Below are positions 3,543-22,710 of a DNA stretch of 60,854 nucleotides, piece by piece. Position 1 is the first letter of the stretch; each line of letters starts with the position of its first letter. Made by a program: the position numbers and the translations under genes. The stretch spans positions 1 to 60,854 of the forward strand of contig JBHHTW010000010.1 in the NCBI GenBank assembly GCA_046861385.1, read 5' to 3'. The notes below the pieces were generated by a model. That model was not told the DNA's origin and did not search any database. It was given only the letters and a program-made list of their open reading frames with translations. This stretch comes from Fidelibacterota bacterium. GTDB lineage: Bacteria; Fidelibacterota; Marinisomatia; Marinisomatales; TCS55.

Positions 3543-5561
3543 ATGAGCTATAATTATAAAAGTTTGTCAATAAATCAACTTTCCATAATTGGGGCAGGTC
3601 AGATAGGTCCGGACATTTGTCTACACTTTTCAAAAGTATTTTCAAAACATCATGTTGCCTTGATATTGGTAGATATCTCTGATGAGGCACTTAATAATGC
3701 AAAGACAAAAATAGAAAAGAAAATCCAAAGAGGCGTTGAATCCGGCGCGTTTAAGCCTGATATGGCTGAATCCATGAGAAACAGCATTACATATACCTCG
3801 GACTATCAAAAAATAGCCGGATCGGAAATTGTGTTGGAAGCTGCCACCGAAGATGAAAAAATAAAAAATGTTATCTTTGGACAGGTTGAAAAAATTTGTG
3901 ATGATCAATGTTTATTCTTATCAAACTCTTCCCACATGCGACCAGAGGTTATTTTCCAAAATATTGAGAATAAAAAACGCTGCCTGGTCACCCATTATTT
4001 TTTCCCGGCAGAACGTAATCCCATTGTTGAAATTATTCCCGGAGAAGCAACCGGCAAAAGTATTACAGATATACTGCTCGGTTTTTATGAAGCTATTGGG
4101 AAGGTTCCAATAAAAGTGAAAAGTTCTTACGGTTATGCAGTAGATCCTATTTTCGAAGGTCTGTGTCAAACTGCTATTTATTGTCTTGAAAAAGGCTATG
4201 GTACCGTTAAAGAAATTGATGCCGCCGCCCGGAAATCTCTCGGTTTGGGAGTCGGTCCTTTTACAGCTCTTGCTTTGACCGGTGGAAACCCCATTACAAA
4301 TCATGGATTGGACGAAATGGGCCATGAACTTATGCCGTGGTTCCGATCGCCAAAAGCTTTGCAGGACGCCGTCAATAATGACACATCCTGGGATATAGCA
4401 AAACAAGGTGAAATAATAGAAACTTCTCCTGAAAAGGAAGCTGTATTAGAAAAGCAATTCCTGGGTGCCTATTTTGCCCTGGTTTCTTATGTAATGGATA
4501 TTGGAATTTGCAATCTAAACGATTTGAATATGGCATGTGAAATTGCATTGGTTGTAAAAGCTCCTTTTACATTAATGAATACAATTGGACTTGACGATGC
4601 TTACGAAATTGTAGAAAAGTTTTGTGCTGAACACAAACGTTTTCCTATTCCAGAATCCCTTATAAATGCGAAAGCTGAAGGAAAATGGAAAACCTCGCAT
4701 CTGGTTAAATCAGTGAAAGATTGCGTTGCCATTTTCACTATACGCCGACCCAGCGTTTTAAATGCATTGAATCTTGATGTTATAGCTGATTTAGAAGCAG
4801 GGTTGGTTGAAACAGAAAGTGATGATTCTATCCTCGGATCAGTCATCACCGGTTTCGGAGTAAAGGCTTTTGTATCTGGAGCGGATATAAATATGCTTGC
4901 ATCCCTAAAAACTCCGGAAGAGGGCTACAATAATGCCAGGAGTTTCCAAGTGGTTTTTAGTAGAATTCAGAAACTGAAGAAACCGGTAATTTGTGCCATG
5001 AACGGATTCGCATTTGGTGGCGGGAATGAACTTGCCATTAGCTGCACCATGAGAATTTGCAAAAAAGGATTGCCCATATTGGCCTGCCAGCCGGAAGTAA
5101 ACCTTGGTTTTATTCCCGGCGCAGGAGGAACACAACGTCTACCGAGATTGATCGGTCTAGACATTGCTGCCGAAATATTACGCACCGGCCGCCCGATCTC
5201 TTCTTCAGAAGCATTCGACATTGGCCTCGTTGATAAAGAAGTAGATGGTGATCTGATTGGACAAGGAATTTCACTTGTAAATCAAATTGCAGAGGGTTCA
5301 TTACTTGTGAAACCCATGACTGAAACACCCATCGCCCTTGGCGAAGGGATTCCCGATATTGAATTGGGTCATTTAAGCCGGGCCATTGACACCATTTTGG
5401 TTGATACAATTTATAAAGGAGGCGAAATGACTCTGGAGGAAGGTCTGGAATTTGAAGCCAGGCAGTTTGGGAAATGTATGAAAACAAAAGATATGAAAAT
5501 CGGACTGAAAAATTTTATAGAGAACGGTCCGAAAGTGAAGGCTGATTTTATTCATGAATGA
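3543..5561 (+). CDS. 3-hydroxyacyl-CoA dehydrogenase / enoyl-CoA hydratase fusion (IaaP-like)
   Basis: N-terminal GAGQIG Rossmann, EAATE, SNSS; C-terminal crotonase AFVSGADI, GGGNELA, QPEVNLGFIPGAGGTQRLPRLIG; ATG at 3543 preferred over TTG 3528. Confidence 0.85.
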   Translation: MSYNYKSLSINQLSIIGAGQIGPDICLHFSKVFSKHHVALILVDISDEALNNAKTKIEKKIQRGVESGAFKPDMAESMRNSITYTSDYQKIAGSEIVLEAATEDEKIKNVIFGQVEKICDDQCLFLSNSSHMRPEVIFQNIENKKRCLVTHYFFPAERNPIVEIIPGEATGKSITDILLGFYEAIGKVPIKVKSSYGYAVDPIFEGLCQTAIYCLEKGYGTVKEIDAAARKSLGLGVGPFTALALTGGNPITNHGLDEMGHELMPWFRSPKALQDAVNNDTSWDIAKQGEIIETSPEKEAVLEKQFLGAYFALVSYVMDIGICNLNDLNMACEIALVVKAPFTLMNTIGLDDAYEIVEKFCAEHKRFPIPESLINAKAEGKWKTSHLVKSVKDCVAIFTIRRPSVLNALNLDVIADLEAGLVETESDDSILGSVITGFGVKAFVSGADINMLASLKTPEEGYNNARSFQVVFSRIQKLKKPVICAMNGFAFGGGNELAISCTMRICKKGLPILACQPEVNLGFIPGAGGTQRLPRLIGLDIAAEILRTGRPISSSEAFDIGLVDKEVDGDLIGQGISLVNQIAEGSLLVKPMTETPIALGEGIPDIELGHLSRAIDTILVDTIYKGGEMTLEEGLEFEARQFGKCMKTKDMKIGLKNFIENGPKVKADFIHE

Positions 5562-5578
5562 CAGGAACTGGATAAAAA

Positions 5579-7696
5579 ATGAAATATAAACTGGGCGTCG
5601 ACATTGGCGGGACATTTACGGACTTTTTCCTCGTATCCAGTACCGGCGAAGCCACCATGCACAAAACACTCTCTACCCCGGAAGATTCCTCCATTGGCTT
5701 TATGACTGGTATCAAGGAGCTGGCTGAAAAATTGTCTGCCAAAGAGGATCAATTCATTCGAAATATCGAAACCATTGTTCATGGAACAACTGTTGCCACC
5801 AATACATTGCTGACTTTAAAAGGAGCTAAAACAGCATTAATAACAACGACGGGATTTCGGGATGCGTTGGAAATGAGACGCGGCATCCGGGAAGAACAAT
5901 ATAATAACCATTACCAAAATGTAACACCCCTTGTCCCCCGATATCTGCGATTGACTCTGGATGAAAGAATTGATGCAGATGGAAATGAAACAACACCGGT
6001 GGATTTGTCACTATTAGATGTGATTATTGATCAGCTAAAAGCGGAATCGGTTGAATCGGTTGCTGTCTGTTTTATGAACTCCTATTTGAACAATTCCCAC
6101 GAAAAACAGGTAACCGAATATTTAAAAACACATTTAAAAGATATTTTTATTACCGCTTCTTATGAAGTACTACCTTCTATCCGATTTTATGAACGGATCA
6201 GTACAACGGTTGTAAATGCTTATATCGGTGTTGTAGTTGACAAATATATCGCCTCATTACTAGCCAAGTTAGAAGCTCTGAACTTTAAAGGTGGTTTTTC
6301 CATCATGCAGTCTAATGGTGGTGTCGTTTCGCCTGATATTGTTCGAAAAATTCCAGCGGTGACTGTTTTATCTGGTCCCGCAGCAGCACCCATTGCCGGT
6401 GCCTATTATGCCGACATACTTGGTTTCAACCATTGTATTACGATGGATATGGGTGGTACCAGTTTTGATGCCAGTATGGTGGTGAATGGTCAATGCGTTA
6501 CCAGCACCGATGGGGATATTAACCGCTATAGGATAGCACTCCCTTCATTGGACATTATTACTATTGGAGCCGGTGGTGGAAGCATTGGCTGGGTTGACAG
6601 CGGCGGACTGCTGAAGATGGGACCCCAAAGCGCAGGCTCATTGCCGGGACCTGTTTGCTATGATAGAAACGGAGAAGAACCTGCCTGTACTGATGCGGAT
6701 TTAATTTTGGGCTACCTTCATCCAAATTTTTTTGCCGGAGGTAAATATCCTCTCAATAAAGAGAAAGCTTCGAAAGAATTGGAGAAAAAGTTAGCTGTTC
6801 CACTAGATCTTTCGATAATGGAAACAGCCGCCGGTATGTACCGCGTAATCAATATGAATATGGCACAGGGTGTTCGTCAGGTATCGGTTGAGCGGGGTTA
6901 TGACCCCAGAGAATTTTTAATGATTGTTGCCGGTGGTGCCGGACCGATTCACGCTGGGGAGATATGTCGTGAATTGGAAATCCCCATGTTTGTTGTTCCC
7001 AATGTTGCTCCTATTTTCTGTGCGACAGGCATGTTATTAGGTGACCTAAAACATGATTATGTTCGATCATATATCACACGATTTTCGGATATTGATAAGA
7101 CGTTCTTCCTTAATTTATATCATGAAATGAAACAGGAAAGTTTTGATACACTGTCCAGGGAAGGAATTGATCAAGATAAAATAGAATTTATTCCCACCCT
7201 TGATTTGCGTTATGTTGGGCAATATCATGAGGTTCCTCTTCAGGTCGGAATGGGTGATATTTCTTCATTCAACCTGGATAATATTAAAAATGAATTTCAT
7301 AAAGAACACAATCGTCAATTTGGATACTCGTTAAAAGAAGAAGATACGGAATTGGAAATAATTAATGTTCGTTTACGGGCAATAGGTATAACTCAAAAGC
7401 CAAATAGTTTTGCGAAAATTGATAATTCTGAACCGATAAAAAACCCTGATTTTGCACTAAAACATCTCCGGAATTCTTATATTCCAGAATTGAATGATTT
7501 AAATGAGATTCCTGTCTATGACGGAGAAAAGCTAACGGGAAAATACACCATCGAAGGTCCTGCAATTATTGAACAAATCAATACTACCATTTTTCTTGGA
7601 AAAACTTACGATTGTGATACAGGAATTGGTGGTTCATTTATTGTTTATAACAAAGATAAATACCCCGATGGATTTGACATCATAAAGCACAATTAA
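5579..7696 (+). CDS. Hydantoinase A / oxoprolinase family ATP-binding subunit (IaaC/E-like)
   Basis: GVDIGGTFTD, HGTTVATN, SGPAAA, DMGGTSFD, GAGGGSIG, GPQSAG motifs. Confidence 0.9.
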   Translation: MKYKLGVDIGGTFTDFFLVSSTGEATMHKTLSTPEDSSIGFMTGIKELAEKLSAKEDQFIRNIETIVHGTTVATNTLLTLKGAKTALITTTGFRDALEMRRGIREEQYNNHYQNVTPLVPRYLRLTLDERIDADGNETTPVDLSLLDVIIDQLKAESVESVAVCFMNSYLNNSHEKQVTEYLKTHLKDIFITASYEVLPSIRFYERISTTVVNAYIGVVVDKYIASLLAKLEALNFKGGFSIMQSNGGVVSPDIVRKIPAVTVLSGPAAAPIAGAYYADILGFNHCITMDMGGTSFDASMVVNGQCVTSTDGDINRYRIALPSLDIITIGAGGGSIGWVDSGGLLKMGPQSAGSLPGPVCYDRNGEEPACTDADLILGYLHPNFFAGGKYPLNKEKASKELEKKLAVPLDLSIMETAAGMYRVINMNMAQGVRQVSVERGYDPREFLMIVAGGAGPIHAGEICRELEIPMFVVPNVAPIFCATGMLLGDLKHDYVRSYITRFSDIDKTFFLNLYHEMKQESFDTLSREGIDQDKIEFIPTLDLRYVGQYHEVPLQVGMGDISSFNLDNIKNEFHKEHNRQFGYSLKEEDTELEIINVRLRAIGITQKPNSFAKIDNSEPIKNPDFALKHLRNSYIPELNDLNEIPVYDGEKLTGKYTIEGPAIIEQINTTIFLGKTYDCDTGIGGSFIVYNKDKYPDGFDIIKHN

Positions 7697-7706: not shown

Positions 7707-9389
7707 ATGGTTAAAATAGATAAAATTCTCCTTTCGATTTTCCAGCGGACTTTCAAATCCATTACGGATGAAATGAGTATTTCATTAACCAAAACAACCC
7801 GATCTCCCATCTTATGCGAAGCGAAAGATTTTGTAACCGGATTATATGACGCAGAAGGCCAAATGCTGGAACAAACAGAGAATCTTCCCATCTTGTCCTT
7901 TTCCCTTGGCCCGGTATGTCGTGTTATATTAGAACAGTATGGGGATAATATTTTTCCCGGGGATGTTATTATCCATAATGATGTATTTTCTATGGGAAAT
8001 CAGAATAATGATGTGGCCATTTTTAAACCCATTTTTCACGAAAATACCCTCATTGGCTGGGCAGCCGCGAAAGGCCATCAGGCGGATATCGGCGGTGCAG
8101 TTCAGGGCGGGTACAATCCCAATGCGACAGAAGTCTGGCAAGAGGCGATTCGAATTCCAGCTGTCAAACTCTATGAAAATGGTGAATTGAGGGAAGATGT
8201 TTGGAATCTTATCTTTGCGAATATTCGTTTGACCATGGTTCAAGAAGATATTAAAGCGCAAATTGGCGCATGTACATTAGGTGAAAGACGTCTGGAAGCT
8301 CTAGTGAATAAATATGGAATCGAATCATTTAATGCCCATAAACAGGAATTATTTGATGCAACTGAAACAATGATGCGCGGTGAAATCGCTGCCATTCCCA
8401 ACGGTGTTTATCATGGTGACAGTATGGTGTTTTATGACGGGAAACATAAGGGATCAGAATTTACCGTTCGAGCAAAAATAACCGTTAAAGATGATTCAAT
8501 TTCGTTTGATTTTTCTGATTCGTCTCCCCAGACGAAAGGATTCGTAAACGGTACATATACATCCACTTGTTCTGCGATTACATTGACATTTCTTCAAATG
8601 GTCAATTCAGATATCCCCCACAACGAGGGTATGATAAAACCCTTGGAATACATTGTGCCAGAAGGAATTATTTTAAATGCTTCCTATCCGGCTGCAACCA
8701 CTTTTGGGAATCACTTATGCCCCCAGGTTGCAGATTCTATTGCCAAGGCGTTGAGCAAAGCCATTCCCGATAAAATCACAGCCGGTTGGAATCATTTACT
8801 CTGTTCATTATTTACAGGCAATCATCCAAAAACGAATGAAAAATATGTAGATATTTGTTTTCTTGGGCTTAAAGGTGGTTCAGGAGCATTGAACGGTTCT
8901 GACGGTTACGACCATATTGGAATGATTGATGCTTCCGGCGGTATATTGGACCAGGATTACGAAATGTTTGAACAGCAGACGCCACACACACTTTTACACC
9001 ACGAATATTTGCAAGACTCCGGAGGGCCAGGTCAATGGCGGGGCGGTTTGGGTGTAGTGACAAAAATCAAACTGGGTGGTGACGATACAACCATGGTGGT
9101 ATTTGGCGACGGGGATGTGAAACCACCCTATGGTTTATTTGGAGGTGAAACAAGTATTCTAAACAGTATATCTTTAACGTATCCTGATGGCAAGAAATTG
9201 GTTCCAATGAGTAAAGATATGATCGAAACTATTCCAAACGGAACGATTTACCGCCAAGTTGCCGGTGGTGGCGGTGGTTATGGAAAACCTGAAGATAGAG
9301 ATCCAAACGTTGTGAAAAATGATTTTTATAATGAAGTAGTATCCAAAGAACAAGCAGAAAAAATTTATAAAGTTCAAATAAAGGTTTAA
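7707..9389 (+). CDS. Hydantoinase B / oxoprolinase family subunit (IaaC/E-like)
   Basis: PGDVIIHND, HQADIGG, EVWQE, DSGGPGQWRGGLG, GGGGGYGKP motifs; paired with the A subunit. Confidence 0.9.
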   Translation: MVKIDKILLSIFQRTFKSITDEMSISLTKTTRSPILCEAKDFVTGLYDAEGQMLEQTENLPILSFSLGPVCRVILEQYGDNIFPGDVIIHNDVFSMGNQNNDVAIFKPIFHENTLIGWAAAKGHQADIGGAVQGGYNPNATEVWQEAIRIPAVKLYENGELREDVWNLIFANIRLTMVQEDIKAQIGACTLGERRLEALVNKYGIESFNAHKQELFDATETMMRGEIAAIPNGVYHGDSMVFYDGKHKGSEFTVRAKITVKDDSISFDFSDSSPQTKGFVNGTYTSTCSAITLTFLQMVNSDIPHNEGMIKPLEYIVPEGIILNASYPAATTFGNHLCPQVADSIAKALSKAIPDKITAGWNHLLCSLFTGNHPKTNEKYVDICFLGLKGGSGALNGSDGYDHIGMIDASGGILDQDYEMFEQQTPHTLLHHEYLQDSGGPGQWRGGLGVVTKIKLGGDDTTMVVFGDGDVKPPYGLFGGETSILNSISLTYPDGKKLVPMSKDMIETIPNGTIYRQVAGGGGGYGKPEDRDPNVVKNDFYNEVVSKEQAEKIYKVQIKV

Positions 9390-9390: not shown

Positions 9391-9879
9391 ATGAGTTATA
9401 CAATAGAACAAAAATTTAGTGCTCTATGTAAAATTACCCGGGCATCTCATTTTGAATGGCGGGAGGCGTTTATAAAAATGTTTCCCAACATGGACTCAAA
9501 AGAAGCTGTTTTGAAATATTGGGAAATTGTTGGCCATGATACTGCCAAGGCATACCTAAAACGAATGGACAGTGCTAAGCCAGTCGCTCCTCAAATTGCT
9601 GAAATGATTGTCAACAGTTCGTTGGCTATGGGTGAGGATGCAGAAATGACAGAGGAAAATAGTGGGAATGTCCGGTTGGTTCATTCCGCGTGTCCTTGGT
9701 ATGACTGGCATAAAAAATATAATGCTCTTGAAGAAGACCAGCCCGGTTGTGACCGTTGGATGCAAACACTCGTGGATGATATCAATCAAAAACTTGGCAC
9801 CCATATTAAAGTCAAAACGATGAGTTCACTGCCAAACGGGAATGACAATTGCACGCGGATTTTTTCGGAGAAAAAATAA
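9391..9879 (+). CDS. Small Cys-motif protein, ATC-hydrolase/V4R-like fold, function unknown
   Basis: CPW...GCD...GNDNC pattern; translationally coupled between hydantoinase B and the acyl-CoA dehydrogenase. Confidence 0.65.
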   Translation: MSYTIEQKFSALCKITRASHFEWREAFIKMFPNMDSKEAVLKYWEIVGHDTAKAYLKRMDSAKPVAPQIAEMIVNSSLAMGEDAEMTEENSGNVRLVHSACPWYDWHKKYNALEEDQPGCDRWMQTLVDDINQKLGTHIKVKTMSSLPNGNDNCTRIFSEKK

Positions 9880-11006
9880 TGAATTTTTCATTGAATAATG
9901 ACCAGGAGCTAATTCAAAAAACTTTCAGGGATTTCGTTGAAAAGGAAGTGAAGCCCCAAGCAGAATCCATTGATAAAAATAAAACATTTCCTGTTGAATT
10001 ATTCAAAAAAGTCGGAGAGCTTGGATTTTTTGGGATGCGATATCCTGAGTTGGCAGGTGGAACCAATTTAGATACACTCTCTTACTGCCTGGCAGTCATC
10101 GAACTGGCAAAGGGTTCTTTATCCCTGGCTGCAGCCTGTACCATGCAATCTTTAATGGCTACCTATTTTCTATTTAAATATGGAGATGAAGAAGTCAGAG
10201 GCTTTTTCAATCAAGCTTTGAAAGGGGAGAAAATCGGCGGCATTTGCATGACAGAACCCAATGCCGGAAGCGATCTGAATAATATCCGAACCAAAGCAAA
10301 AGTCCTGGAGGATCATTTTTTGTTGACCGGTCAGAAAACCTGGGTCACTTCCGCACCGGTTGCTGATTTTTTCACTGTATTCGCCAAAACCGATAACCAT
10401 GAAAAATTATCTATATTTTTTGTTCCCATCCGTTTAGACGGTGTCCATATTGGCAAACCAATTGAAAAGTTAGGTGTACGTGGTTCTGTGACCAGTGAAG
10501 TGGCATTTGATGAAGTAAAACTACCGAAAAATTATTTGTTGGGGGAAATAGGCGGAGGAACTGATTGTCTTAAGGATATTTTAGCTGAAATACGAATTAT
10601 GACCGCTGCTTTGGCTGTCGGTGTTGCCACAGCCGCATTTGAAGCGGCAGTTGAATATGCTAAAACCAGGAAACAGTTTGGCAGACCAATTGGAAAGTTT
10701 CAGGCTATTCGGCTCAAGATTGCAGATATGGGTGTTCAGTTGGAAACCGCCAGACAATACGTTTTTTATGCTGCTGCTTTGAGCGACCAAGATTCCCCGA
10801 TGCAGAAAGAATCGATGATAGCAAAACTTTATGCCTCTGAATGTGCCAACTCCATTTGCGATACTGCTTCCAGAATTTTCGCCTCTTACGGTTATGCCAT
10901 GGAATATCCCATACAGCGTTATTTAAGAGATGCCCGATTTACGCTCATCGGCGGAGGCACATCGGAAATACTGGGTATCAACATTGGTCGAGAATTAGGT
11001 CTGTGA
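9879..11006 (+). CDS. Acyl-CoA dehydrogenase (IaaF-like, probably decarboxylating)
   Basis: CMTEPNAGSD, GQKTWVT, RKQFGRPIGKFQAI, YGYAMEYP, IGGGTSEI; ATG at 9879 overlaps the upstream stop. Confidence 0.88.
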   Translation: MNFSLNNDQELIQKTFRDFVEKEVKPQAESIDKNKTFPVELFKKVGELGFFGMRYPELAGGTNLDTLSYCLAVIELAKGSLSLAAACTMQSLMATYFLFKYGDEEVRGFFNQALKGEKIGGICMTEPNAGSDLNNIRTKAKVLEDHFLLTGQKTWVTSAPVADFFTVFAKTDNHEKLSIFFVPIRLDGVHIGKPIEKLGVRGSVTSEVAFDEVKLPKNYLLGEIGGGTDCLKDILAEIRIMTAALAVGVATAAFEAAVEYAKTRKQFGRPIGKFQAIRLKIADMGVQLETARQYVFYAAALSDQDSPMQKESMIAKLYASECANSICDTASRIFASYGYAMEYPIQRYLRDARFTLIGGGTSEILGINIGRELGL

Positions 11007-12715: not shown

Positions 12716-12717
12716 CG

Positions 12718-16507: not shown

Positions 16508-19045
16508 ATGATGAAAGACAAAATTGAAGCACAAATAAAAGCGCCCGCCAACAGCCCATATATTTTGCAAGGCAATGCTGCTTTTGCATTGGGTGTTATC
16601 CATGCCGGTTACCATGCGGCAACGGGTTACGCAGGAACTCCCAGCACAGAAGTAATTGATAAAACACTGGCTTTTGCACAGGATTCCATGAAAGTCGGCT
16701 GGTCGGTAAATGAAGCGGTTGCAGTGTCAACAGGCGTTGGTCATGCCATTGCCGGATTTGACTCTTTAGTGACCATGAAAATTCCTGGTGTTTTTCAAGC
16801 GGCTGATGCTATTACAACCTCCGCATTTTTTAGTGGAAAGTCAGGAGCCCTTGTGATTTTCGCCGCAACAGATTATGCGCCTTCCAGCACCCAGCACGTG
16901 ATTGATCCACGATACTTTTTTGCATCAACACGGCTCCCTGTATTACAGCCACGCAACCATCAGGAAATGTATGATATTGCTCGAACGGCTGCAGATATGA
17001 GTAGAAATTATCATACGCCTGTGATTGTTCTGGCTTCTGGGATTCTTTCACATTCAGAGGCATTGATACGGACGAAGGAGTCCAGGATAATCGAACCAAT
17101 GGAATTGCCTGACACGCTCCACGAATGGATGCTTTTACCCAGTATCGCCAGAAAAAACTATAATAAAGCCACCCAAAAACGTATTCCTTCAATTCAGGTT
17201 TGGGCTGAAACGTCAGAACTCATTACCGAAACAACCGGAAAAGATGAATGGGGTATCATTGTCTGCGGAAATACGGAAGGGACTGTTCGGGAAGTTTTAA
17301 GCAGTTTGAATCTCGACCCATCCATTCTATCCATTGGAATTACAAATCCAATTCCCAAAAAACGTATCGGTCAGTTTGCTGAAAAAATTTCAAATAACAT
17401 TTTTGTAATTGAGGATGGCGATCGATATTTAGAAGAGAAAATTCGTCTTATGGGAATAGAGGCTATTGGTAAAAATGAGGGTAGCGTTTTAACTCTGTGG
17501 ACCCCTGAAGACGTGATTCAACTTTTATCAAAACAACTGGACTTACCTCCAATCCAAAAACCAAATACAATTGAATTGGAACCATTACCCAGGCCTCCCT
17601 CCATTTGTCCAGGGTGTTCTTATAAAGCATTCGCCTTATCCGTCGCCAAATTGAAAAAAAGAAAAAAGATTTATGCAGCCTTTGGCGATATAGGTTGTTC
17701 TACACTATTATTTTATAATAACGCATTGGATACTGTTTCATGCATGGGAGCATCCGATTCTATGCGGCAGGGCTTTGTATTATCAAGGCCGGAAATGGCT
17801 CATAAAGTAATTAGTGTGATTGGGGATTCAACAGAATGTCATTCAGGATTAGATGGAACTCGGAATGCAATTTTTCGAAATATACCTGGGGTAAAAGTTA
17901 TATTGGACAACTATAGCACCGCCATGACCGGCGGACAGCCATCGCCCAGTTCCAAGGCAAATTTAGAAGGCCGTCCAAACAATTTCAGCCTAAAGGAGGC
18001 TGTGGAAGCTGAAGGGGGACGTACAATCGTCGTGGATGCGTTTGATGTTAAAGGTGTTGATAATTCATTAAAAAAAGCACTGAAATTGGCTGAGGAAAAA
18101 ATATATACAACTCTAATTCTCGAAGGGGACTGCATCCACGATGTGGAGAGAAACAAATTGGAGCGCAATCTTGAATTCAATTATGATAATTGTAAGAATT
18201 GTGATTTATGCAACATTTGTCCAGGGATTGAAACAGATGATTCAAAGACACCCCATTTTACAAGCATGTGTTCAAACTGTTCTTCGAATAACCAAGTTTG
18301 TGTTCAGCGCTGCCCCTTTGATGCAATTTCTATTATTGCCGACAATGGAAAAAGTGAAAATGATTTTCAACATATTGACATACCCAAATTCACCGAACCT
18401 GTGGAAATTGATAAAAATAAACTACCGGAATCATTGAAAATTGCTATCAGGGGAATTGGCGGTCAGGGGAATATATTCTTTGGCAAAGTTTTATCCGAAG
18501 TGGCATTACGCACTCCTTATGCTGACGCCCACATTATTAAAGGAGATACGTTGGGAATGGCAAGGCTTGGCGGATCAGTTATCTCTACATTCAGCTGCGG
18601 GAATGCATACTCTCCCATCCTGGCGCCAAATTCTGCCGACGTATTAGTGGTTATGGAAGCGAGCGAAGTTCTCCGCCCCCGGTTTTTGGAATTGTTAAAA
18701 CCCAACGGATCCATCATTATGAACGAATATTCCGCTTTACCAATTAATGCTCATAAAGAAGAATATCCGGATATTGAATCTATTCGAAAAGTGTTGGATG
18801 GCTATAAGATAATAAGCGTCGACGCGAACCAAATTGCGATAGATATGAACGACAAGAGGGCCATGACTGCCAATGTAATTATTGTTGGATTACTATCAAC
18901 AATTGAACCGTTTAATCATATTCCCAGCGAAATCTGGCAAGCAGCCATATTGGAATTGTCTCCAAATAATTTGATCAAATCCATGAACCTAACAGCATAT
19001 AGCAAAGGGAGAAATTGGATTAATAAACAAACGGTTGCACTTTAA
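16508..19045 (+). CDS. iorAB: Indolepyruvate:ferredoxin oxidoreductase, fused alpha+beta (IorA-IorB)
   Basis: GNAAFALG, YAGTPSTE, NEAVA, RPPSICPGC, GDIGC, GDSTECHSG...DNYSTAMTGGQ (TPP), CxxCxxC ferredoxin, then IorB-like GIGGQG and GMARLGGSV. Confidence 0.85.
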   Translation: MMKDKIEAQIKAPANSPYILQGNAAFALGVIHAGYHAATGYAGTPSTEVIDKTLAFAQDSMKVGWSVNEAVAVSTGVGHAIAGFDSLVTMKIPGVFQAADAITTSAFFSGKSGALVIFAATDYAPSSTQHVIDPRYFFASTRLPVLQPRNHQEMYDIARTAADMSRNYHTPVIVLASGILSHSEALIRTKESRIIEPMELPDTLHEWMLLPSIARKNYNKATQKRIPSIQVWAETSELITETTGKDEWGIIVCGNTEGTVREVLSSLNLDPSILSIGITNPIPKKRIGQFAEKISNNIFVIEDGDRYLEEKIRLMGIEAIGKNEGSVLTLWTPEDVIQLLSKQLDLPPIQKPNTIELEPLPRPPSICPGCSYKAFALSVAKLKKRKKIYAAFGDIGCSTLLFYNNALDTVSCMGASDSMRQGFVLSRPEMAHKVISVIGDSTECHSGLDGTRNAIFRNIPGVKVILDNYSTAMTGGQPSPSSKANLEGRPNNFSLKEAVEAEGGRTIVVDAFDVKGVDNSLKKALKLAEEKIYTTLILEGDCIHDVERNKLERNLEFNYDNCKNCDLCNICPGIETDDSKTPHFTSMCSNCSSNNQVCVQRCPFDAISIIADNGKSENDFQHIDIPKFTEPVEIDKNKLPESLKIAIRGIGGQGNIFFGKVLSEVALRTPYADAHIIKGDTLGMARLGGSVISTFSCGNAYSPILAPNSADVLVVMEASEVLRPRFLELLKPNGSIIMNEYSALPINAHKEEYPDIESIRKVLDGYKIISVDANQIAIDMNDKRAMTANVIIVGLLSTIEPFNHIPSEIWQAAILELSPNNLIKSMNLTAYSKGRNWINKQTVAL

Positions 19046-19054
19046 TTAGTCATT

Positions 19055-19534
19055 ATGCAAACTGCTGACAACAAAATATCTTTTACTATTAACGGGAGAA
19101 AAGTGGAGCAAACCATTTCCTCCTCCATGCTCCTTATCGATTTTATTCGAGATGAACTGAAACTAAAAGGTACAAAACCAGGCTGCCTCGGCGGGGAGTG
19201 CGGTGCTTGTACGGTATTGGTTGACGGCATGGCGGTTAATTCTTGTCTCTATCTTGCCATAAACGCTGATGGAAAATCCGTTACTACCGTTGAAGGTCTT
19301 TCCTCTGGTAATGCATCTTTAGATATGGTTCAGCAATCCATGGTGGATCATGGAGCTGTCCAATGCGGATTTTGCACCCCCGGGATAGTCATGGCCATTA
19401 AATCATATAAAAATCAATGTGACCAGAATAATCATAAACCAGGCCGGGAAGAAATAAAGAAAAGTCTGGAAGGGAATATATGCCGCTGCACCGGTTATGT
19501 TAAAATTATTGATGCTGTTGAGGCGTTGTTCTAA
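19055..19534 (+). CDS. Xanthine-dehydrogenase-family 2Fe-2S subunit (IaaIJK-like complex)
   Basis: GCLGGECGACTV, QCGFCTPG, GNICRCTGY. Confidence 0.9.
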   Translation: MQTADNKISFTINGRKVEQTISSSMLLIDFIRDELKLKGTKPGCLGGECGACTVLVDGMAVNSCLYLAINADGKSVTTVEGLSSGNASLDMVQQSMVDHGAVQCGFCTPGIVMAIKSYKNQCDQNNHKPGREEIKKSLEGNICRCTGYVKIIDAVEALF

Positions 19535-19536
19535 AC

Positions 19537-21843
19537 ATGAATCAGGATAAAAAATTTACCGTTATCGGCAAACGCATTCCCAAAATCGACGCCAGAGACC
19601 GGGTCACAGGTAAATCGGTTTTTGGATATGATCTAGAATTACCGGGGATGCTCCACGGGGCTATTTTACATTCAAAATATCCTTCAGCAATTATTAAGTC
19701 CATCGATACTTCAAAAGCGAAGAAACTCGCTGGTGTTGAATGTATCATCACAGCAGACGATGTTGACACCAATAATCTCAACTATCTCCAGGATCATCCT
19801 GTTTTAAAAAATGAGGAAGTGAATTGTATTCGTGACGAAGTCGCTGCCGTGGCGGCTGTATCAAAAGAAATCGCCATGAAAGCACTGGAATTAATCGAAG
19901 TGACCTACGTTGAACGGAAAGGTGTTTTTGATCCTTTCGATGCGCTGAAAGATGATGCTCCTAAAATCAATAAATTCGGAAAGGGAAATACACGTCATCA
20001 AAATATTTCTGAATCATTTCATTATGAACACGGAGATTTAGAAAAAGAAAAGAAAAGAAGTACCTGTATTATCACCCGGCAATATGTTCTTCCAAAAGTG
20101 TCCCCCACATGCTTGTCTCCCAGTAGTATTACTGCAAGTTATTCTGTTGAAAACGATATCCTGACACTTCACAGTTCCACCCAGGTGCCCTTTTTATATC
20201 AAAGGGAAATATCTCACGTGCTTAAAATGGATCCGTCCAAAATCCGGGTGATTCAACCCATTATTGGTGGCGGATTTGGAACAAAACTGGATATCCATCC
20301 TTTTGAACCGATTTGCGCTCTTTTATCGATGAAAACCGGTAAACCGGTTCAAGTTTTATTTAGCAGAGAGGAAGAATTTCACCATTCTGCCATCCGGCAA
20401 TCCATGGTCATTGACTTAACAACCGGCGCAGACAAAAACGGACGATTTACTTTCAGGGAAGTAAAAGTGACCAAAGATAACGGAGCCTATACTTCCTGGG
20501 GAGCCAAAACTTCCTTTGTGATTATGCAGACATTTTCATCGTTATATCAGGTGCCCGCCTGCGTATACCATGCCGATGCCGTTTATACCAATAATGTTTT
20601 TGCCGGGTCAATCAGAGGGTTTGGTAATCCACAAGCGACCTTTGCCCTGGAAAGGAATATTGACTTAATGGCCGAAGAATTGGGAATGGACCGGACTGAA
20701 ATTCGATTAATAAACGCGAATTTTCCTGGAGAAATTTCTGGACAGGGTCTTGAATATCACTCTTGTGGTCACAAACCTGCCCTGGAAACAGTTATTAAAC
20801 AAAGCGGTTATTTGAATATACATCAGCAAAATGATTCAGGCAGATATAAAAGAGGGATTGGTTTTGCTTCCATGCTGCATGTGGGGGGTGGCGCCAAGAT
20901 TTACCGGTCTGACGGTTGTGGAACGACACTCAAACTAGACCCATATGGCTACCTGACCATTATTACAGGATCAAGTGAAATCGGACAAGGTTCGGAAACA
21001 GTATTGGCCATGATAGCAGCAGAAGAGTTGGGAATAGAATTAAATAAGATAAAAGTCATCAATACAGATACAAATGTGAAACCCTGGGATGTGGGTGTTC
21101 ATGCATCCAGAACCAGCTTTGTGGCCGGGAATTCAATATTGGGAGCCTTGAAAAAATTAAAAGAGAAACTGTTGAAAAAAGCGTCTCAGCTCCTAAATAC
21201 AACAAGCGATGATTTGGTATTTGAATCGGGCGAGATTAAATCGATAAAAACAAGTGATTCATTAAAGATTGATAAAATTGTTAGAGAGCTGCATTTTAAA
21301 CCTCCTCATGAATTATGTGAGGTTTCATATTTTTACGAACCGTCCAGTCAATTTCAAGATAAGAATTTCAAGGGTAATGTATCCGGCTGTTATGCGTTTG
21401 CTGCTCAGGCGGTGGAAGTTGAAGTGGATACATTAACCGGAAAAGTAGAAGTATTGCATGTACATGTGGGTCAGGATGTTGGGAAAGTCCTAAACCCCTT
21501 GGGGCTTGAAGGTCAGATAGAAGGTGGTGTTGTCATGGGGATGGGTTACGCTTTGACTGAAGAAATGATTTATAAAAACGGATATTTGCAAAATACTACT
21601 TTTCACGATTATAAGGTTCCGACTCCGCGAGACATCCCGGAGATTCATTTTTATCCGATTGAGACACATGAGAAAACGGGCCCCTATGGCGCGAAAGGCA
21701 TGGCAGAGGCTCCTCTGGTTCCGACTCCTGCGGCTATTGCAAATGCTGTATCTAATGTGTTGGGCGTTGAACTTAATTCACTCCCAATCACTCCAGAAAA
21801 AGTACTGAAAGCCATTTACGAAAAACAGTCTGGAAATAATTAA
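19537..21843 (+). CDS. Xanthine-dehydrogenase-family molybdopterin subunit (candidate indoleacetate 2-hydroxylase)
   Basis: STQ, IGGGFG, GSIRGFGNPQ, EIGQGSET, HASRT, QIEGG, GAKGMAE motifs. Confidence 0.88.
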   Translation: MNQDKKFTVIGKRIPKIDARDRVTGKSVFGYDLELPGMLHGAILHSKYPSAIIKSIDTSKAKKLAGVECIITADDVDTNNLNYLQDHPVLKNEEVNCIRDEVAAVAAVSKEIAMKALELIEVTYVERKGVFDPFDALKDDAPKINKFGKGNTRHQNISESFHYEHGDLEKEKKRSTCIITRQYVLPKVSPTCLSPSSITASYSVENDILTLHSSTQVPFLYQREISHVLKMDPSKIRVIQPIIGGGFGTKLDIHPFEPICALLSMKTGKPVQVLFSREEEFHHSAIRQSMVIDLTTGADKNGRFTFREVKVTKDNGAYTSWGAKTSFVIMQTFSSLYQVPACVYHADAVYTNNVFAGSIRGFGNPQATFALERNIDLMAEELGMDRTEIRLINANFPGEISGQGLEYHSCGHKPALETVIKQSGYLNIHQQNDSGRYKRGIGFASMLHVGGGAKIYRSDGCGTTLKLDPYGYLTIITGSSEIGQGSETVLAMIAAEELGIELNKIKVINTDTNVKPWDVGVHASRTSFVAGNSILGALKKLKEKLLKKASQLLNTTSDDLVFESGEIKSIKTSDSLKIDKIVRELHFKPPHELCEVSYFYEPSSQFQDKNFKGNVSGCYAFAAQAVEVEVDTLTGKVEVLHVHVGQDVGKVLNPLGLEGQIEGGVVMGMGYALTEEMIYKNGYLQNTTFHDYKVPTPRDIPEIHFYPIETHEKTGPYGAKGMAEAPLVPTPAAIANAVSNVLGVELNSLPITPEKVLKAIYEKQSGNN

Positions 21844-21846
21844 ACA

Positions 21847-22710
21847 ATGAATTTTCAAACGATTAGCCCACAAACCACTGATGAACTTTTAGAAATGATC
21901 AGACAGAATCAGGGAAAACATTTCAGGTTCGGTGCCGGATACACGGATTTGTTACCAGAACTACAATCAGAGATGGAAGATGGTTTAACCGTTATCAATC
22001 TTGCAAAATTAAAAGATGATTATTTTATATCAATCAATCTTTCGGAAGATGGAATCAGAATTGGCGCACTGACAACAATGTCCGACGTATTATCCAGTAA
22101 ACACCTCCAAAAATTCCCTGTCTTAATTGAAGCGGTTGAAAGTCTGGCATCTACCCAGATCAGGTCTGTAGCCACCGTTGGGGGGAATTTATGTACTGCT
22201 TCCCCGGCCGGAGATGTCTCTTGCGCTTTGATGGCTCTAAACACATCATGTGAAATATTGGACACAGATGGACAAATTAGAACCGTGCCGCTTACTCAAT
22301 TTTTTACCGGTGTGAAAACAACCACATTGAAAACGAATGAAATACTACGAGGCGTTTTAATTCCTCGTCAAGATTCTGGAAATAAAATTATTTCCGGATT
22401 TATCAAAATTGGAAACCGTAACTCTATGGAGATAGCGCTGGTTTCCCTAGCATATCATATAATGGTAGATAGAAATGGCGTTATTACAAAAGCTGGAGCA
22501 GCTGTGGGTTCTGTTGCAGAAACAATCAAATATACAGAATTGGCCTGTGAATTTTTATTGGGGAAAAAAATGGATCGATTGTCTGAAAAGGATAAACAAA
22601 CATTTGCTGATCATGTTTTGGAATATACAAATCCCATTTCTGATATCCGTGCATCTGCATGGTATCGTCGCAAGGTTCTATGGAATGTAACCAAAAGTAT
22701 TCTGGAATAA
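21847..22710 (+). CDS. Xanthine-dehydrogenase-family FAD subunit
   Basis: AGYTDL, QIRSVATVGGNLCTASPAGD, PISDIRASAWYR. Confidence 0.88.
   Translation: MNFQTISPQTTDELLEMIRQNQGKHFRFGAGYTDLLPELQSEMEDGLTVINLAKLKDDYFISINLSEDGIRIGALTTMSDVLSSKHLQKFPVLIEAVESLASTQIRSVATVGGNLCTASPAGDVSCALMALNTSCEILDTDGQIRTVPLTQFFTGVKTTTLKTNEILRGVLIPRQDSGNKIISGFIKIGNRNSMEIALVSLAYHIMVDRNGVITKAGAAVGSVAETIKYTELACEFLLGKKMDRLSEKDKQTFADHVLEYTNPISDIRASAWYRRKVLWNVTKSILE

What the first reader, a model, noticed from the sequence alone, without database searches (positions are those of the whole stretch)
3543..22710. Near-complete anaerobic indole-3-acetate (iaa-type) degradation operon in a non-model AT-rich bacterium
Seen: one strand carries HAD/crotonase fusion, hydantoinase A+B, acyl-CoA dehydrogenase, thiolase, split B12 mutase, family III CoA transferase and a three-subunit Mo hydroxylase. 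Established: this is the enzyme set of the iaa pathway of Aromatoleum aromaticum/Azoarcus evansii (IAA to 2-oxo-IAA to (2-aminophenyl)succinate, CoA ester, mutase to (2-aminobenzyl)malonyl-CoA, decarboxylating oxidation, beta-oxidation to 2-aminobenzoyl-CoA). Inference: same chemistry here, in a lineage that does not look betaproteobacterial. Automated annotation would scatter these as generic genes.
Basis: partly seen in the sequence, partly recalled or inferred. Interest (0 to 1): 0.85.

Follow-up and report, generated by a model that had tools for sequence, protein, structure and literature searches.

The report
Tryptophan/auxin breakdown operon, iaa-type
This is a real gene cluster of the known oxygen-independent "iaa" type for breaking down indoleacetate, found here in a marine Marinimicrobia-like bacterium, where it seems to start from tryptophan and not from free plant hormone, and where it feeds directly into genes for reducing the aromatic ring.

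Summary

The acyl-CoA dehydrogenase has the GGG motif that a paper gives as the hallmark of benzylmalonyl-CoA dehydrogenase IaaF. All five paralogues in the same genome keep the catalytic Glu. The module recurs in 80 fetched loci from many phyla. The proteobacterial loci show the iaaB-C-E-F-GH-IJK-L order.

The iaa-type reading therefore holds. No named Aromatoleum protein could be fetched for a direct test.

Differences from the described operon:
- No IaaB-type ligase or binding protein is present.
- An IOR-type enzyme takes that place. It occurs in 41 of 80 loci, the ligase in 6, and never both.
- A TrpB2 gene, an extra aminotransferase, a benzoyl-CoA-reductase-like operon and Had/Oah/Dch follow.

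My reading is oxygen-independent tryptophan catabolism via indoleacetyl-CoA to 2-aminobenzoyl-CoA, followed by ring reduction.

iaa operons outside Betaproteobacteria are already in print, and this scan noted the Bacteroidota version on other DNA. Interest is moderate.

The parts
2539..3153 (-). TetR-family regulator, divergent from the operon
   Evidence: Pfam TetR_N. A homologue at 53-78% identity holds the same place in congeners.
3543..5561 (+). 3-hydroxyacyl-CoA dehydrogenase / enoyl-CoA hydratase fusion (beta-oxidation of 2-aminocinnamoyl-CoA, inferred)
   Evidence: Pfam 3HCDH_N 18-198 and ECH_1 398-591. ATG at 3543. Homologues found in 25 source sequences (the window plus 24 loci).
5579..7696 (+). 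Hydantoinase-like ATP-dependent hydrolase, large subunit (IaaC-like)
   Evidence: Pfam Hydantoinase_A 295.9 bits. 705 aa against 707 aa for IaaC (PMC8453981). Caprolactamase alpha 657 bits, under the 1000 cut-off.
7707..9389 (+). Hydantoinase-like hydrolase, small subunit (IaaE-like)
   Evidence: Pfam Hydantoinase_B 488 bits. 560 aa against 564 aa for IaaE.
9391..9879 (+). Small ATC_hydrolase-family protein. It sits where most relatives have a RidA-family gene. Role unknown.
   Evidence: Pfam 25.8 bits, below the cut-off. Atlas score 0.95 to ATC_hydrolase clusters. Invariant H98, C101, C120, C154 in 8 sequences. Model pLDDT 89 with Bet3/H-NOX-like matches, TM about 0.55.
9879..11006 (+). IaaF-type (benzylmalonyl-CoA dehydrogenase-like) acyl-CoA dehydrogenase
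   Evidence: GGG in place of YEG. Clade of 66 GGG proteins with 99 SH-aLRT support in a quick tree. Homologues are 375 aa.
11029..12237 (+). Divergent thiolase (release of acetyl-CoA, giving 2-aminobenzoyl-CoA; inferred)
   Evidence: Pfam Thiolase_N/C. Homologues at 52-58% identity in the ligase-type proteobacterial loci.
12317..14304 (+). Split B12-dependent acyl-CoA mutase: small subunit 12317-12715, large subunit 12718-14304 (IaaGH-like)
   Evidence: Pfam B12-binding and MM_CoA_mutase. MCM equivalog 520 bits, under the 876 cut-off. Keeps the Tyr and Arg aligned with those of MCM. Two other mutase paralogues in the genome are 43% identical.
14399..14918 (+). hicA (14399-14605) / hicB (14589-14918) toxin-antitoxin pair inserted in the operon. 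Not part of the pathway.
   Evidence: ORFs. Pfam HicB. Absent at this place in congeners.
15223..16503 (+). Family III CoA-transferase (IaaL-like)
   Evidence: Pfam CoA_transf_3 225.8 bits. Homologues found in 40 source sequences (the window plus 39 loci).
16508..19045 (+). Fused IOR alpha+beta 2-oxoacid:ferredoxin oxidoreductase. Proposed entry enzyme: indolepyruvate to indoleacetyl-CoA.
   Evidence: NCBIfam IOR_alpha 362 bits and IOR_beta 95 bits, both under their cut-offs. TPP domain and two Cys clusters at 562-571 and 588-602. Present at 57-90% identity in 8 loci. IOR-type and ligase genes are mutually exclusive across the loci.
19055..22710 (+). Three-subunit Mo-cofactor hydroxylase: 2Fe-2S, MoCo and FAD subunits (ring C2 hydroxylation, inferred)
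   Evidence: Pfam Fer2_2, MoCoBD_1/2, FAD_binding_5. Under the cut-offs of XdhA and 4-hydroxybenzoyl-CoA reductase.
22784..24145 (-). TrpB2-class tryptophan synthase beta-like PLP enzyme (indole + serine to tryptophan, inferred)
   Evidence: NF009057 738 bits, over the 366 cut-off. PDB TrpB2 chains 409-456 bits against 131 bits for TrpB1. Lies in-operon in 13 loci.
24390..25409 (+). Extra HisC-family aminotransferase (tryptophan to indolepyruvate, inferred)
   Evidence: Pfam Aminotran_1_2. 31% identical to the HisC of the his operon at 50856-51908. Kept at 83% identity in a congener.
25860..30445 (+). MarR regulator plus a four-gene class-I benzoyl-CoA-reductase-like operon (C, B, A, D order)
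   Evidence: Pfam HGD-D x2 and BcrAD_BadFG x2. Best NCBIfam hits are BcrC/B/A/D, all under their cut-offs. Kept at 87-91% identity in a congener.
35427..39299 (+). Had, Oah and Dch of the dearomatised-ring pathway, interrupted by an IS200-type transposase (37821-38384)
   Evidence: TIGR03201 436 bits, over 339. TIGR03200 559 bits, over 464. TIGR03189 233 bits, under 292. Y1_Tnp.

Best explanation
Window 3543-22710 is an iaa-type catabolic operon in a small (2.4 Mb, 39% GC) Marinimicrobia-like genome. Its core converts an indole-3-acetyl unit to 2-aminobenzoyl-CoA by the chemistry proposed for Aromatoleum. The proposed steps are:
1. The Mo hydroxylase oxidises C2 of the pyrrole ring.
2. The two-subunit hydantoinase-like enzyme opens the lactam at the cost of ATP, giving (2-aminophenyl)succinate.
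3. The family III transferase sets the CoA ester.
4. The B12 mutase rearranges it to (2-aminobenzyl)malonyl-CoA.
5. The GGG-type dehydrogenase oxidises and decarboxylates it to 2-aminocinnamoyl-CoA.
6. The dehydrogenase/hydratase fusion and the thiolase release acetyl-CoA.

This cluster differs from the Aromatoleum operon at its entry. I propose that the substrate is tryptophan, not imported auxin. The adjacent extra aminotransferase would make indolepyruvate. The in-operon fused IOR would then turn it directly into indoleacetyl-CoA, replacing the IaaB ligase and the IaaM binding protein.

The product would go to the neighbouring benzoyl-CoA-reductase-like enzyme and to Dch/Had/Oah.

Basis of each part:
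- Shown here: gene content, motif, synteny and distribution.
- Shown in print, for Aromatoleum only: the activities of IaaB, IaaL and IaaF.
- Inferred: every activity of the window's own proteins, and the tryptophan entry.
For: Core enzymes:
- All core enzyme families are present in one strand-consistent block.
- The dehydrogenase has GGG where acyl-CoA dehydrogenases have YEG. PMC8360864 (discussion read) gives this as common to all IaaF-subclass members and ties it to decarboxylation in place of proton abstraction.
- 67 of the 69 dehydrogenases in this similarity cluster have GGG. One exception is a second paralogue and one is truncated. The 5 paralogues in the window's genome have YEG x3, GEG and WEG.
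- The 66 full-length GGG proteins form one clade (99 SH-aLRT, quick tree).
- Generic dehydrogenases on plasmids reach at most 41.7% identity. Cluster-linked ones reach 54-90%.
- HydA and HydB are 705 and 560 aa, against 707 and 564 aa for IaaC and IaaE.
- The mutase keeps the Tyr and Arg that align with the MCM pair, whereas HCM has Ile and Gln there. It is a third paralogue beside two others at 43% identity.
- Rival family cut-offs are not reached.

Synteny:
- Proteobacterial loci L078 and L079 read ligase-HydA-HydB-ACAD-B12-mutase-Mo x3-transferase. This is the alphabetical iaaB..L order (gene list).

Entry by IOR:
- An IOR/POR-type gene is present in 41 of 80 loci, the cluster-type ligase in 6 of 80, and both in 0 of 80.
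- The window's genome has no ligase homologue above 28.6% identity.
- PMC8360864 Fig. 1 legend starts the pathway from indoleacetyl-CoA, which is the product expected of IOR.

Coupling to ring reduction:
- BCR-like genes and Had/Oah lie within 15 kb.
- The order is kept in congeners.
- Oah scores over its cut-off in 5 of 5 Bacteroidota genomes that carry the operon, against 0 of 14 control genomes. BcrB-like genes lie on the same contigs.
Against: - No characterised Iaa protein sequence could be brought in, so orthology rests on a motif, sizes, gene order and a paper's description, not on reciprocal hits.
- IOR_alpha and IOR_beta scores are well under the curated cut-offs (362 against 651 bits; 95 against 206 bits). 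The 2-oxoacid it uses is therefore unknown. It could instead supply reduced ferredoxin.
- The aminotransferase is not conserved next to the operon outside this lineage.
- The 41/6/0 pattern counts related genomes, not independent events. 33 of the 80 loci show neither gene, and many of them are cut by contig ends.
- The BCR-like subunits are all below the NCBIfam cut-offs.
- PMC8360864 says strict anaerobes carry an ETF paralogue beside iaaF. None is in this window. The two ETF pairs are on other contigs.
- The genome also has a haem-copper oxidase, so the label 'anaerobic' is not established for the organism.
- Nothing here shows expression or activity.
Confidence: 0.6

Rival explanations
1. 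It is the canonical auxin pathway. Free indoleacetate is taken up and degraded. Activation and transport are encoded elsewhere or done by the 572-aa AMP-ligase at 30749-32467. The IOR only regenerates reduced ferredoxin for the ATP-dependent ring reductase.
For: - The core enzyme set and the GGG motif fit equally well.
- An AMP-binding ligase lies 8 kb downstream. It is the best match in the genome, though weak at 28.6%, to the cluster-type ligase.
- In known class I reductase systems a 2-oxoacid:ferredoxin oxidoreductase regenerates the electron donor (recalled, not checked here).
Against: - The IOR-type gene lies inside the operon, between the transferase and the Mo hydroxylase. It occurs in 41 of 80 loci and never together with the cluster-type ligase.
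- No solute-binding protein or transporter domain was found among the 55 ORFs scanned.
- The downstream ligase belongs to the long-chain/FadD-like group by NCBIfam. It heads a different gene trio.
Confidence: 0.2
2. The same enzyme families act on another substrate: a different lactam or aryl-succinate type compound. Examples are another 3-substituted indole or oxindole, or a product of another arylpyruvate. The resemblance to iaa would then be one of chemistry, not of substrate.
For: - No substrate is shown for any protein here.
- All NCBIfam hits are under the equivalog cut-offs.
- IOR-family enzymes accept several arylpyruvates (recalled).
Against: - According to PMC8360864, the GGG dehydrogenase subclass is found only in operons with other iaa genes.
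- A TrpB2-class enzyme, whose known substrate is indole, lies in-operon in 13 loci and next to the operon here.
- The need for both a ring hydroxylase and a lactam hydrolase fits an indole ring.
Confidence: 0.15
3. The genes are unrelated housekeeping genes that lie together by chance.
For: None beyond the generic names that automatic annotation gives them.
Against: - The same gene set is conserved across 80 loci of at least seven phyla.
- Each gene has separate housekeeping paralogues elsewhere in the genome.
Confidence: 0.01

Closest known systems
iaa gene cluster (iaaABCDEFGHIJKLMPQR) of Aromatoleum aromaticum EbN1 / Aromatoleum evansii KB740: anaerobic indoleacetate degradation to 2-aminobenzoyl-CoA
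   Same: - Hydantoinase-like IaaC/E-sized pair.
- GGG-type IaaF-like dehydrogenase.
- Split B12 mutase.
- Family III CoA-transferase.
- Three-subunit Mo hydroxylase.
- Hydratase/dehydrogenase fusion and thiolase.
   Different: - No IaaB-type ligase, no IaaM binding protein and no GntR-type regulator. TetR and MarR regulators are present instead.
- A fused IOR sits in the operon.
- TrpB2 and an extra aminotransferase are adjacent.
- An ATC_hydrolase-family ORF follows HydB.
- The gene order differs: the thiolase lies between the dehydrogenase and the mutase, and the transferase comes before the Mo enzyme.
- The ring-reduction genes are directly attached.
- The list of Aromatoleum enzyme types beyond B, C/E, F, GH, L and M is recalled from the 2012 paper's abstract. 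That paper was not held.
Predicted iaa operons of strict anaerobes and archaea (Desulfatiglans anilini, other sulfate reducers, strain NaphS2, Desulfocarbo indianensis, Ferroglobus placidus, Thermoplasmatales), as cited in PMC8360864
   Same: iaaF orthologues with the GGG motif in operons with other iaa genes, outside the Betaproteobacteria.
   Different: - Those operons are said to include a dedicated non-bifurcating ETF paralogue. The window has none; its genome's two ETF pairs are on contigs C25 and C78.
- Whether those operons carry IOR genes could not be checked. Schuhle et al. 2016 was not seen.
- A paper on F. placidus growing on tryptophan is only recalled and was not found in the library.
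Bacteroidota / FCB-type version of the cluster
   Same: - HydA/HydB, GGG dehydrogenase, B12 mutase, transferase, IOR-type enzyme and Mo hydroxylase.
- TrpB2 in 13 loci.
- Oah and BcrB-like genes in the same genomes.
   Different: - Most FCB loci have a RidA-family gene (found in 36 loci) where the window has the ATC_hydrolase-family gene.
- They have a DUF35-like OB-fold protein plus an SCP-x-type thiolase (found in 29 loci each) where the window has the proteobacterial-type thiolase.
- They often have a 1133-aa IOR fused to a pyridine-nucleotide-disulphide oxidoreductase plus a separate gamma subunit, in place of the 845-aa fusion.
ATP-dependent lactamases and carboxylases of the hydantoinase/oxoprolinase family (caprolactamase CapAB, acetophenone carboxylase)
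   Same: Two-subunit Hydantoinase_A/B architecture. Caprolactamase is the best-scoring curated family (657 and 391 bits).
   Different: The scores are far under the equivalog cut-offs (1000). Acetophenone carboxylase scores are lower still (377 and 114 bits against 1500).
Methylmalonyl-CoA mutase and 2-hydroxyisobutyryl-CoA mutase
   Same: Same fold and the split large/small subunit layout of HCM. The best solved match is HcmA 4r3u at 497 bits; human MCM gives 421 bits. The window protein keeps the Tyr and Arg that align with the MCM pair. That this pair binds the substrate carboxylate is recalled.
   Different: It is below the MCM equivalog cut-off (520 against 876 bits). It is only 43% identical to the genome's two other mutase genes.

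Membership tests
iaa (anaerobic indoleacetate) gene cluster, Aromatoleum type | IaaF-subclass acyl-CoA dehydrogenase: GGG replaces the catalytic YEG motif (criterion from PMC8360864, discussion) | tested here: met
   The window protein reads ...LIGGGTSE.... 67 of 69 cluster members have GGG, and the 5 own-genome paralogues keep the Glu.
iaa (anaerobic indoleacetate) gene cluster, Aromatoleum type | Heteromeric hydantoinase-like hydrolase IaaC/IaaE (707 and 564 aa) | tested here: met
   Hydantoinase_A and Hydantoinase_B, 705 and 560 aa (sizes from PMC8453981 Table 1). This tests domains and sizes only.
iaa (anaerobic indoleacetate) gene cluster, Aromatoleum type | Split B12-dependent mutase (IaaGH) for a dicarboxylyl-CoA | tested here: met
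   B12-binding plus MM_CoA_mutase genes. The Tyr and Arg aligned with the MCM pair are kept. No IaaGH-specific marker is known to me.
iaa (anaerobic indoleacetate) gene cluster, Aromatoleum type | Family III CoA-transferase (IaaL) | tested here: met
   CoA_transf_3 at 225.8 bits. Domain level only.
iaa (anaerobic indoleacetate) gene cluster, Aromatoleum type | Three-subunit Mo-cofactor dehydrogenase of the xanthine oxidase family, a hydratase/dehydrogenase fusion and a thiolase | tested here: met
   Pfam domains. That these belong to the Aromatoleum set is recalled from the 2012 abstract, and is supported by the gene order of loci L078 and L079.
iaa (anaerobic indoleacetate) gene cluster, Aromatoleum type | Indoleacetate-CoA ligase IaaB in the cluster | tested here: not met
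   No homologue of the cluster-type ligase at 35% identity or more in the window or its genome; the best is 28.6%. The query was the ligase of locus L073, not IaaB itself.
iaa (anaerobic indoleacetate) gene cluster, Aromatoleum type | Periplasmic binding protein IaaM / uptake genes in the cluster | tested here: not met
   None of the 55 ORFs scanned against Pfam shows a solute-binding or transporter domain. The rest of the genome was not searched.
iaa (anaerobic indoleacetate) gene cluster, Aromatoleum type | Orthology to the characterised A. aromaticum proteins (reciprocal best hits, joint tree) | not testable with these tools
   No named Aromatoleum or Ferroglobus sequence could be obtained.
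iaa (anaerobic indoleacetate) gene cluster, Aromatoleum type | Activity on pathway intermediates; induction by indoleacetate | not testable with these tools
   Needs enzyme assays or cultures.
Indolepyruvate:ferredoxin oxidoreductase (IOR) | Scores over the curated cut-offs of IOR_alpha (650.9) and IOR_beta (205.8); TPP and Fe-S sites | tested here: inconclusive
   362.2 and 94.6 bits: the best families but under their cut-offs. A TPP domain and two Cys clusters are present. No solved relative at E 1e-5.
TrpB2-class tryptophan synthase beta-like enzymes | Score over the cut-off of NF009057; closer to solved TrpB2 than to TrpB1; PLP lysine motif | tested here: met
   738.3 bits against a 366 cut-off. 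409-456 bits to TrpB2 chains against 131 bits to TrpB1. A ...GSHKPN... stretch is present.
Class I (ATP-dependent) benzoyl-CoA reductase | Two HGD-D-type subunits plus two different BcrAD-type ATPase subunits in one operon | tested here: met
   Genes at 26358-30445 in C-B-A-D order.
Class I (ATP-dependent) benzoyl-CoA reductase | Scores over the NCBIfam equivalog cut-offs for BcrC/B/A/D or BzdN/O/P/Q | tested here: not met
   266, 196, 221 and 139 bits against cut-offs of 421, 487, 578 and 313. It works like a BCR by layout and by its Had/Oah neighbours, but membership is open.
Dearomatised-ring pathway (Had, Oah, Dch) | Scores over the cut-offs of TIGR03201, TIGR03200 and TIGR03189 | tested here: met
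   Had 436.5 over 338.65 and Oah 559 over 464.45. Dch at 232.9 is under 292.5.
Methylmalonyl-CoA mutase proper | Score over the equivalog cut-off of NF006944 (876) | tested here: not met
   520.2 bits.

The most novel reading that the evidence does not exclude
The IOR-type form of this cluster, common in Bacteroidota, Marinimicrobia and their kin, may be an oxygen-independent route for mineralising both tryptophan and free indole. The proposed steps are:
1. The cluster-linked TrpB2 condenses indole with serine or phosphoserine to give tryptophan.
2. An aminotransferase makes indolepyruvate.
3. The IOR makes indoleacetyl-CoA.
4. The iaa core makes 2-aminobenzoyl-CoA.
5. A divergent ATP-dependent reductase dearomatises it.

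This would give TrpB2 a catabolic role. It would also give abundant marine and groundwater heterotrophs a way to remove indole and tryptophan without oxygenases. Several of these organisms lack tryptophan synthase alpha.
Probability: 0.2. Interest if true: 0.7.

Novelty: new variant of a known kind. Interest (0 to 1): 0.5.

Why it matters
The iaa pathway has been studied in two denitrifying Betaproteobacteria and is framed as auxin degradation. Here the same core module turns up in a Marinimicrobia-like genome.

In most of these the ligase is replaced by an IOR-type enzyme, and the cluster is tied to ring-reduction genes. If the tryptophan reading is right, the main ecological role of this pathway is oxygen-independent catabolism of an amino acid, and perhaps of indole, in oceans, sediments and aquifers. 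It would not be removal of a plant hormone.

The reading is directly testable with four recombinant enzymes and labelled substrates. The practical gain for annotation is a simple marker: the GGG dehydrogenase next to a hydantoinase A/B pair and a split mutase.

Tried and rejected
- Named anchor for orthology. The 2012 paper (PMC3370604) is not held. A homologue search with the proteobacterial dehydrogenase of L078 listed 120 proteins, none from a named isolate. A plasmid search gave only generic dehydrogenases at 41.7% identity or less. No Aromatoleum or Ferroglobus sequence could be compared.
- Literature. Six searches found no paper in the held library that describes this cluster in Marinimicrobia or Bacteroidota, or an IOR-linked iaa cluster. 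The 2020 review of indoleacetate catabolism, Schuhle et al. 2016 and a recalled F. placidus amino-acid paper are not held, so prior description cannot be excluded.
- Expression. No RNA holder was listed for window 9391-19045. The only holders are four runs of one sample labelled hydrothermal vent metagenome, probably the source.
- Promoter and terminator scans of 2400-22300 were at chance level: 56 sites against 55.7 expected, and 20 against 18.3. No inverted repeat was found in the TetR-operon spacer.
- Solved structures. There is none for the IOR fusion at E 1e-5.
- Small ORF 9391-9879. The fold search gave only moderate matches to Bet3/TRAPP and H-NOX domains (TM 0.45-0.57, identity 7-15%). 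This is a lead towards a small-ligand-binding fold, not a function.
- Tree. Only the quick tree finished; the careful search did not. Outgroup branches are very long, so I use only the clade of GGG proteins.
- Considered and dropped. A biosynthetic or reverse role for the cluster in these tryptophan-auxotroph-like genomes: the IaaF reaction is described as irreversible.
- Considered and dropped. Tryptophanase as the entry step: the best Beta_elim_lyase match in the genome is only 40 bits.

Full report
**What is in the sequence**

The ORF lists and Pfam and NCBIfam scans show a run of + strand genes from 3528/3543 to 22710:
- a 3-hydroxyacyl-CoA dehydrogenase/enoyl-CoA hydratase fusion;
- Hydantoinase_A (705 aa) and Hydantoinase_B (560 aa);
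- a 162-aa ATC_hydrolase-family ORF;
- an acyl-CoA dehydrogenase (true start ATG 9879, 375 aa like its homologues);
- a divergent thiolase;
- the small and large subunits of a B12 mutase;
- an inserted hicA/hicB pair;
- a family III CoA-transferase;
- an 845-aa fusion of IOR alpha and beta subunits, with a TPP domain and two Cys clusters;
- the 2Fe-2S, MoCo and FAD subunits of a Mo hydroxylase.

The IOR fusion, the small ORF and hicAB were missed.

**Surroundings**

- A TetR gene lies divergently upstream.
- Downstream come a TrpB2-class gene on the minus strand (738 bits against a cut-off of 366) and a second HisC-family aminotransferase.
- Next are a MarR gene and four genes laid out like a class I benzoyl-CoA reductase. 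All four are under the curated cut-offs.
- Then an AMP-ligase, followed by a lone HGD-D protein with an ApbA-type reductase and an activase.
- Then Had and Oah (both over their cut-offs), an IS200-type transposase, Dch, an SDR and a thiolase.
- Last is a second Mo enzyme close to 4-hydroxybenzoyl-CoA reductase (837 bits against 995).
- After 45 kb the contig turns to shikimate, histidine and arginine biosynthesis.

**The organism**

- The window is a whole contig of a 2.43-Mb, 104-contig, 38.9% GC genome, rated 97.85% complete.
- The nearest named loci come from Marinimicrobia/Neomarinimicrobiota MAGs. Their dehydrogenases are 79-85% identical and the gene order is the same.
- In a sample of 301 genomes of its phylum, the dehydrogenase was found in 10, the window's own included. 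All 10 are in one order, and they include 3 of 5 other members of its genus.
- Congeners keep the whole order from TetR to BcrD, without hicAB.
- The genome has a haem-copper oxidase and two ETF pairs on other contigs.
- It has no match to tryptophan synthase alpha or to indoleglycerol-phosphate synthase and no second TrpB.

**Is it iaa-type?**

Papers I could read give this picture:
- The cluster is iaaABCDEFGHIJKLMPQR (PMC9613470, passages).
- IaaB is a CoA ligase and IaaM a binding protein.
- IaaL is phenylsuccinyl-CoA transferase, IaaGH the mutase, and IaaF benzylmalonyl-CoA dehydrogenase (PMC8360864, introduction and discussion part 1).
- IaaC/E are a 707/564-aa hydantoinase-like hydrolase for 2-oxo-indoleacetate (PMC8453981, passages).

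The sharpest test available is the IaaF motif. The paper says all IaaF-subclass members have GGG where other acyl-CoA dehydrogenases have YEG or a close variant that retains the Glu.
- The window protein has GGG.
- So do 67 of the 69 members of its similarity cluster. One exception is a second paralogue in L019 and one is a truncated gene.
- The five other acyl-CoA dehydrogenases of the same genome read YEG (three), GEG and WEG.
- In a quick ML tree the 66 full-length GGG proteins form one clade (99 SH-aLRT) apart from those paralogues. The careful search did not finish.

By curated cut-offs that test is not met:

| Rival family | Score (bits) | Cut-off (bits) |
|---|---|---|
| Caprolactamase, alpha / beta | 657 / 391 | 1000 |
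| Acetophenone carboxylase | 377 / 114 | 1500 |
| XdhA | 527 | 780 |
| 4-hydroxybenzoyl-CoA reductase alpha | 567 | 995 |
| MCM equivalog | 520 | 876 |

The mutase keeps the Tyr and Arg that align with the MCM pair, where hydroxyisobutyryl-CoA mutase has Ile and Gln. That the pair binds the carboxylate is recalled. This fits a dicarboxylyl-CoA substrate but does not separate the enzyme from MCM. The genome has two other mutase genes at 43% identity.

**Comparative evidence**

Of these, 509 encode a relative, and 80 loci were kept.
- tblastn of the window's proteins and clustering of all ORFs show two layouts.
- Proteobacterial loci such as L078 and L079 read thiolase, ligase, HydA, HydB, dehydrogenase, B12, mutase, three Mo subunits, transferase. 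This is the iaaB to iaaL order.
- Loci of Bacteroidota and allied phyla read: hydratase/dehydrogenase fusion, sometimes TrpB2, HydA, HydB, a RidA-family gene (found in 36 loci) or the ATC_hydrolase-family gene, dehydrogenase, a DUF35-like OB-fold protein and an SCP-x-type thiolase (found in 29 loci each), B12, mutase, transferase, an IOR-type enzyme, and then the Mo subunits where the flank reaches them.
- The window mixes the two layouts. It has the proteobacterial-type thiolase and the 845-aa IOR fusion.

**The entry step**

- An IOR/POR-type gene lies in 41 of the 80 loci, the cluster-type AMP-ligase in 6, and both in none.
- 33 loci show neither. Many of these are cut by contig ends.
- These are related genomes, so the pattern is suggestive and not a statistical test.
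- The window's genome has no homologue of that ligase above 28.6% identity.
- No binding-protein or transporter domain is among the 55 ORFs scanned.
- PMC8360864 draws the pathway as starting from indoleacetyl-CoA, and IOR makes exactly that compound from indolepyruvate (established function of the family). The simplest reading is therefore that this variant takes its substrate from tryptophan, through the adjacent extra aminotransferase.
- The IOR scores are well under the curated cut-offs, so its 2-oxoacid is not settled. A role as ferredoxin reducer for the ring reductase is the main alternative.

**TrpB2**

- The gene next to the operon belongs to the TrpB2 class: 409-456 bits to solved TrpB2 chains, against 131 bits to TrpB1.
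- Homologues at 60-66% identity lie inside the operon, on the same strand, in 13 loci.
- Tryptophan synthase alpha was found over its cut-off in only 1 of 5 such Bacteroidota genomes (their completeness is unknown). It was not found in the window's genome.
- A catabolic role, funnelling indole into tryptophan and on into this pathway, is possible but untested. I keep it as the most novel reading.

**Link to ring reduction**

- In the window and its congeners the BCR-like operon follows within 4 kb.
- All 5 Bacteroidota genomes tested carry Oah over its cut-off. None of the 14 control genomes does.
- BcrB-like genes at 33-35% identity lie on the same contigs.
- The end product is therefore very likely an aryl-CoA that is dearomatised reductively, as expected for 2-aminobenzoyl-CoA.

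**What is already known**

- PMC8360864 states that iaa operons occur in Desulfatiglans anilini, other sulfate reducers and Ferroglobus placidus. It lists IaaF orthologues from R. palustris, NaphS2, Desulfocarbo and Thermoplasmatales.
- One source already names homologues at 74-75% identity 'benzylmalonyl-CoA dehydrogenase' (4 of the 120 listed).
- This scan has noted the Bacteroidota version on other DNA and read it as starting from tryptophan (e1-686267). It has also noted the carboxylate-binding residues of an IaaG-like mutase (e1-3382129). I reached the same readings from my own calls before seeing these notes.
- No paper in the held library describes the cluster in Marinimicrobia or Bacteroidota, or the swap of IOR for ligase. 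The papers most likely to do so are not held.

**Verdict**

This is a real, conserved, iaa-type operon: a variant of a known pathway in a new lineage. The substrate is more likely tryptophan-derived indolepyruvate than free auxin, and the novelty is less than claimed. I give the combined reading 0.6, free auxin 0.2 and another substrate 0.15. Interest is 0.5.

Noticed in passing
window 14399-14918: A hicA (68 aa) / hicB (109 aa) toxin-antitoxin pair is inserted between the mutase and the CoA-transferase. It is followed by a 92-aa ORF that overlaps the start of the transferase. The pair is absent at this place in congeners and in L001.
   Followed up: partly
window 32471-35399; loci L002, L004, L005, L006, L007, L018, L021, L042, L057: A lone HGD-D-family protein, an ApbA/PanE-type reductase and a BcrAD-type activase form a trio. 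In 9 Bacteroidota loci the reductase and the activase are fused (615 aa) and sit at the head of the iaa-like operon. The trio could be an ATP-driven reductase or dehydratase of unknown substrate that is tied to this pathway.
   Followed up: partly
window 9391-9879 and the same position in the loci: The slot between HydB and the dehydrogenase holds either a RidA-family gene (found in 36 loci) or an ATC_hydrolase-family gene (the window plus 7 loci). This looks like non-homologous replacement. The window protein has invariant His/Cys residues and a Bet3/H-NOX-like predicted fold.
   Followed up: partly
whole genome G000: The genome is rated 97.85% complete but has no match to tryptophan synthase alpha or indoleglycerol-phosphate synthase, and no second TrpB. 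The TrpB2 next to the operon is its only tryptophan-synthase-like gene.
   Followed up: partly
window 41266-44941: A second three-subunit Mo enzyme is close to 4-hydroxybenzoyl-CoA reductase (alpha subunit 837 bits against a cut-off of 995). Its FAD subunit carries an insert. This hints that tyrosine-derived 4-hydroxybenzoyl-CoA is also handled by this island.
   Followed up: no
window 37821-38384: An IS200/Y1-type transposase gene lies between Oah and Dch.
   Followed up: no
G000 contig C56 (about 1400-22200) and C101: Further Mo-hydroxylase subunit sets and IOR-like genes lie on other contigs of the same genome. They may form a second N-heterocycle or aromatic catabolic island.
   Followed up: no
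L048 (Candidatus Competibacteraceae MAG): A gammaproteobacterial MAG carries the Bacteroidota-type layout. Its dehydrogenase is 68% identical to the window's and nests among Bacteroidota and Ignavibacteria in the quick tree. This suggests lateral transfer or a binning error.
   Followed up: no
G001-G005 (genomes of L018, L019, L021, L043, L056): All five Bacteroidota genomes with the operon carry Oah over its curated cut-off, with BcrB-like genes on the same contig. ATP-dependent ring reduction may therefore be more common in Bacteroidota than I would have expected from recall (not checked in the literature).
   Followed up: partly
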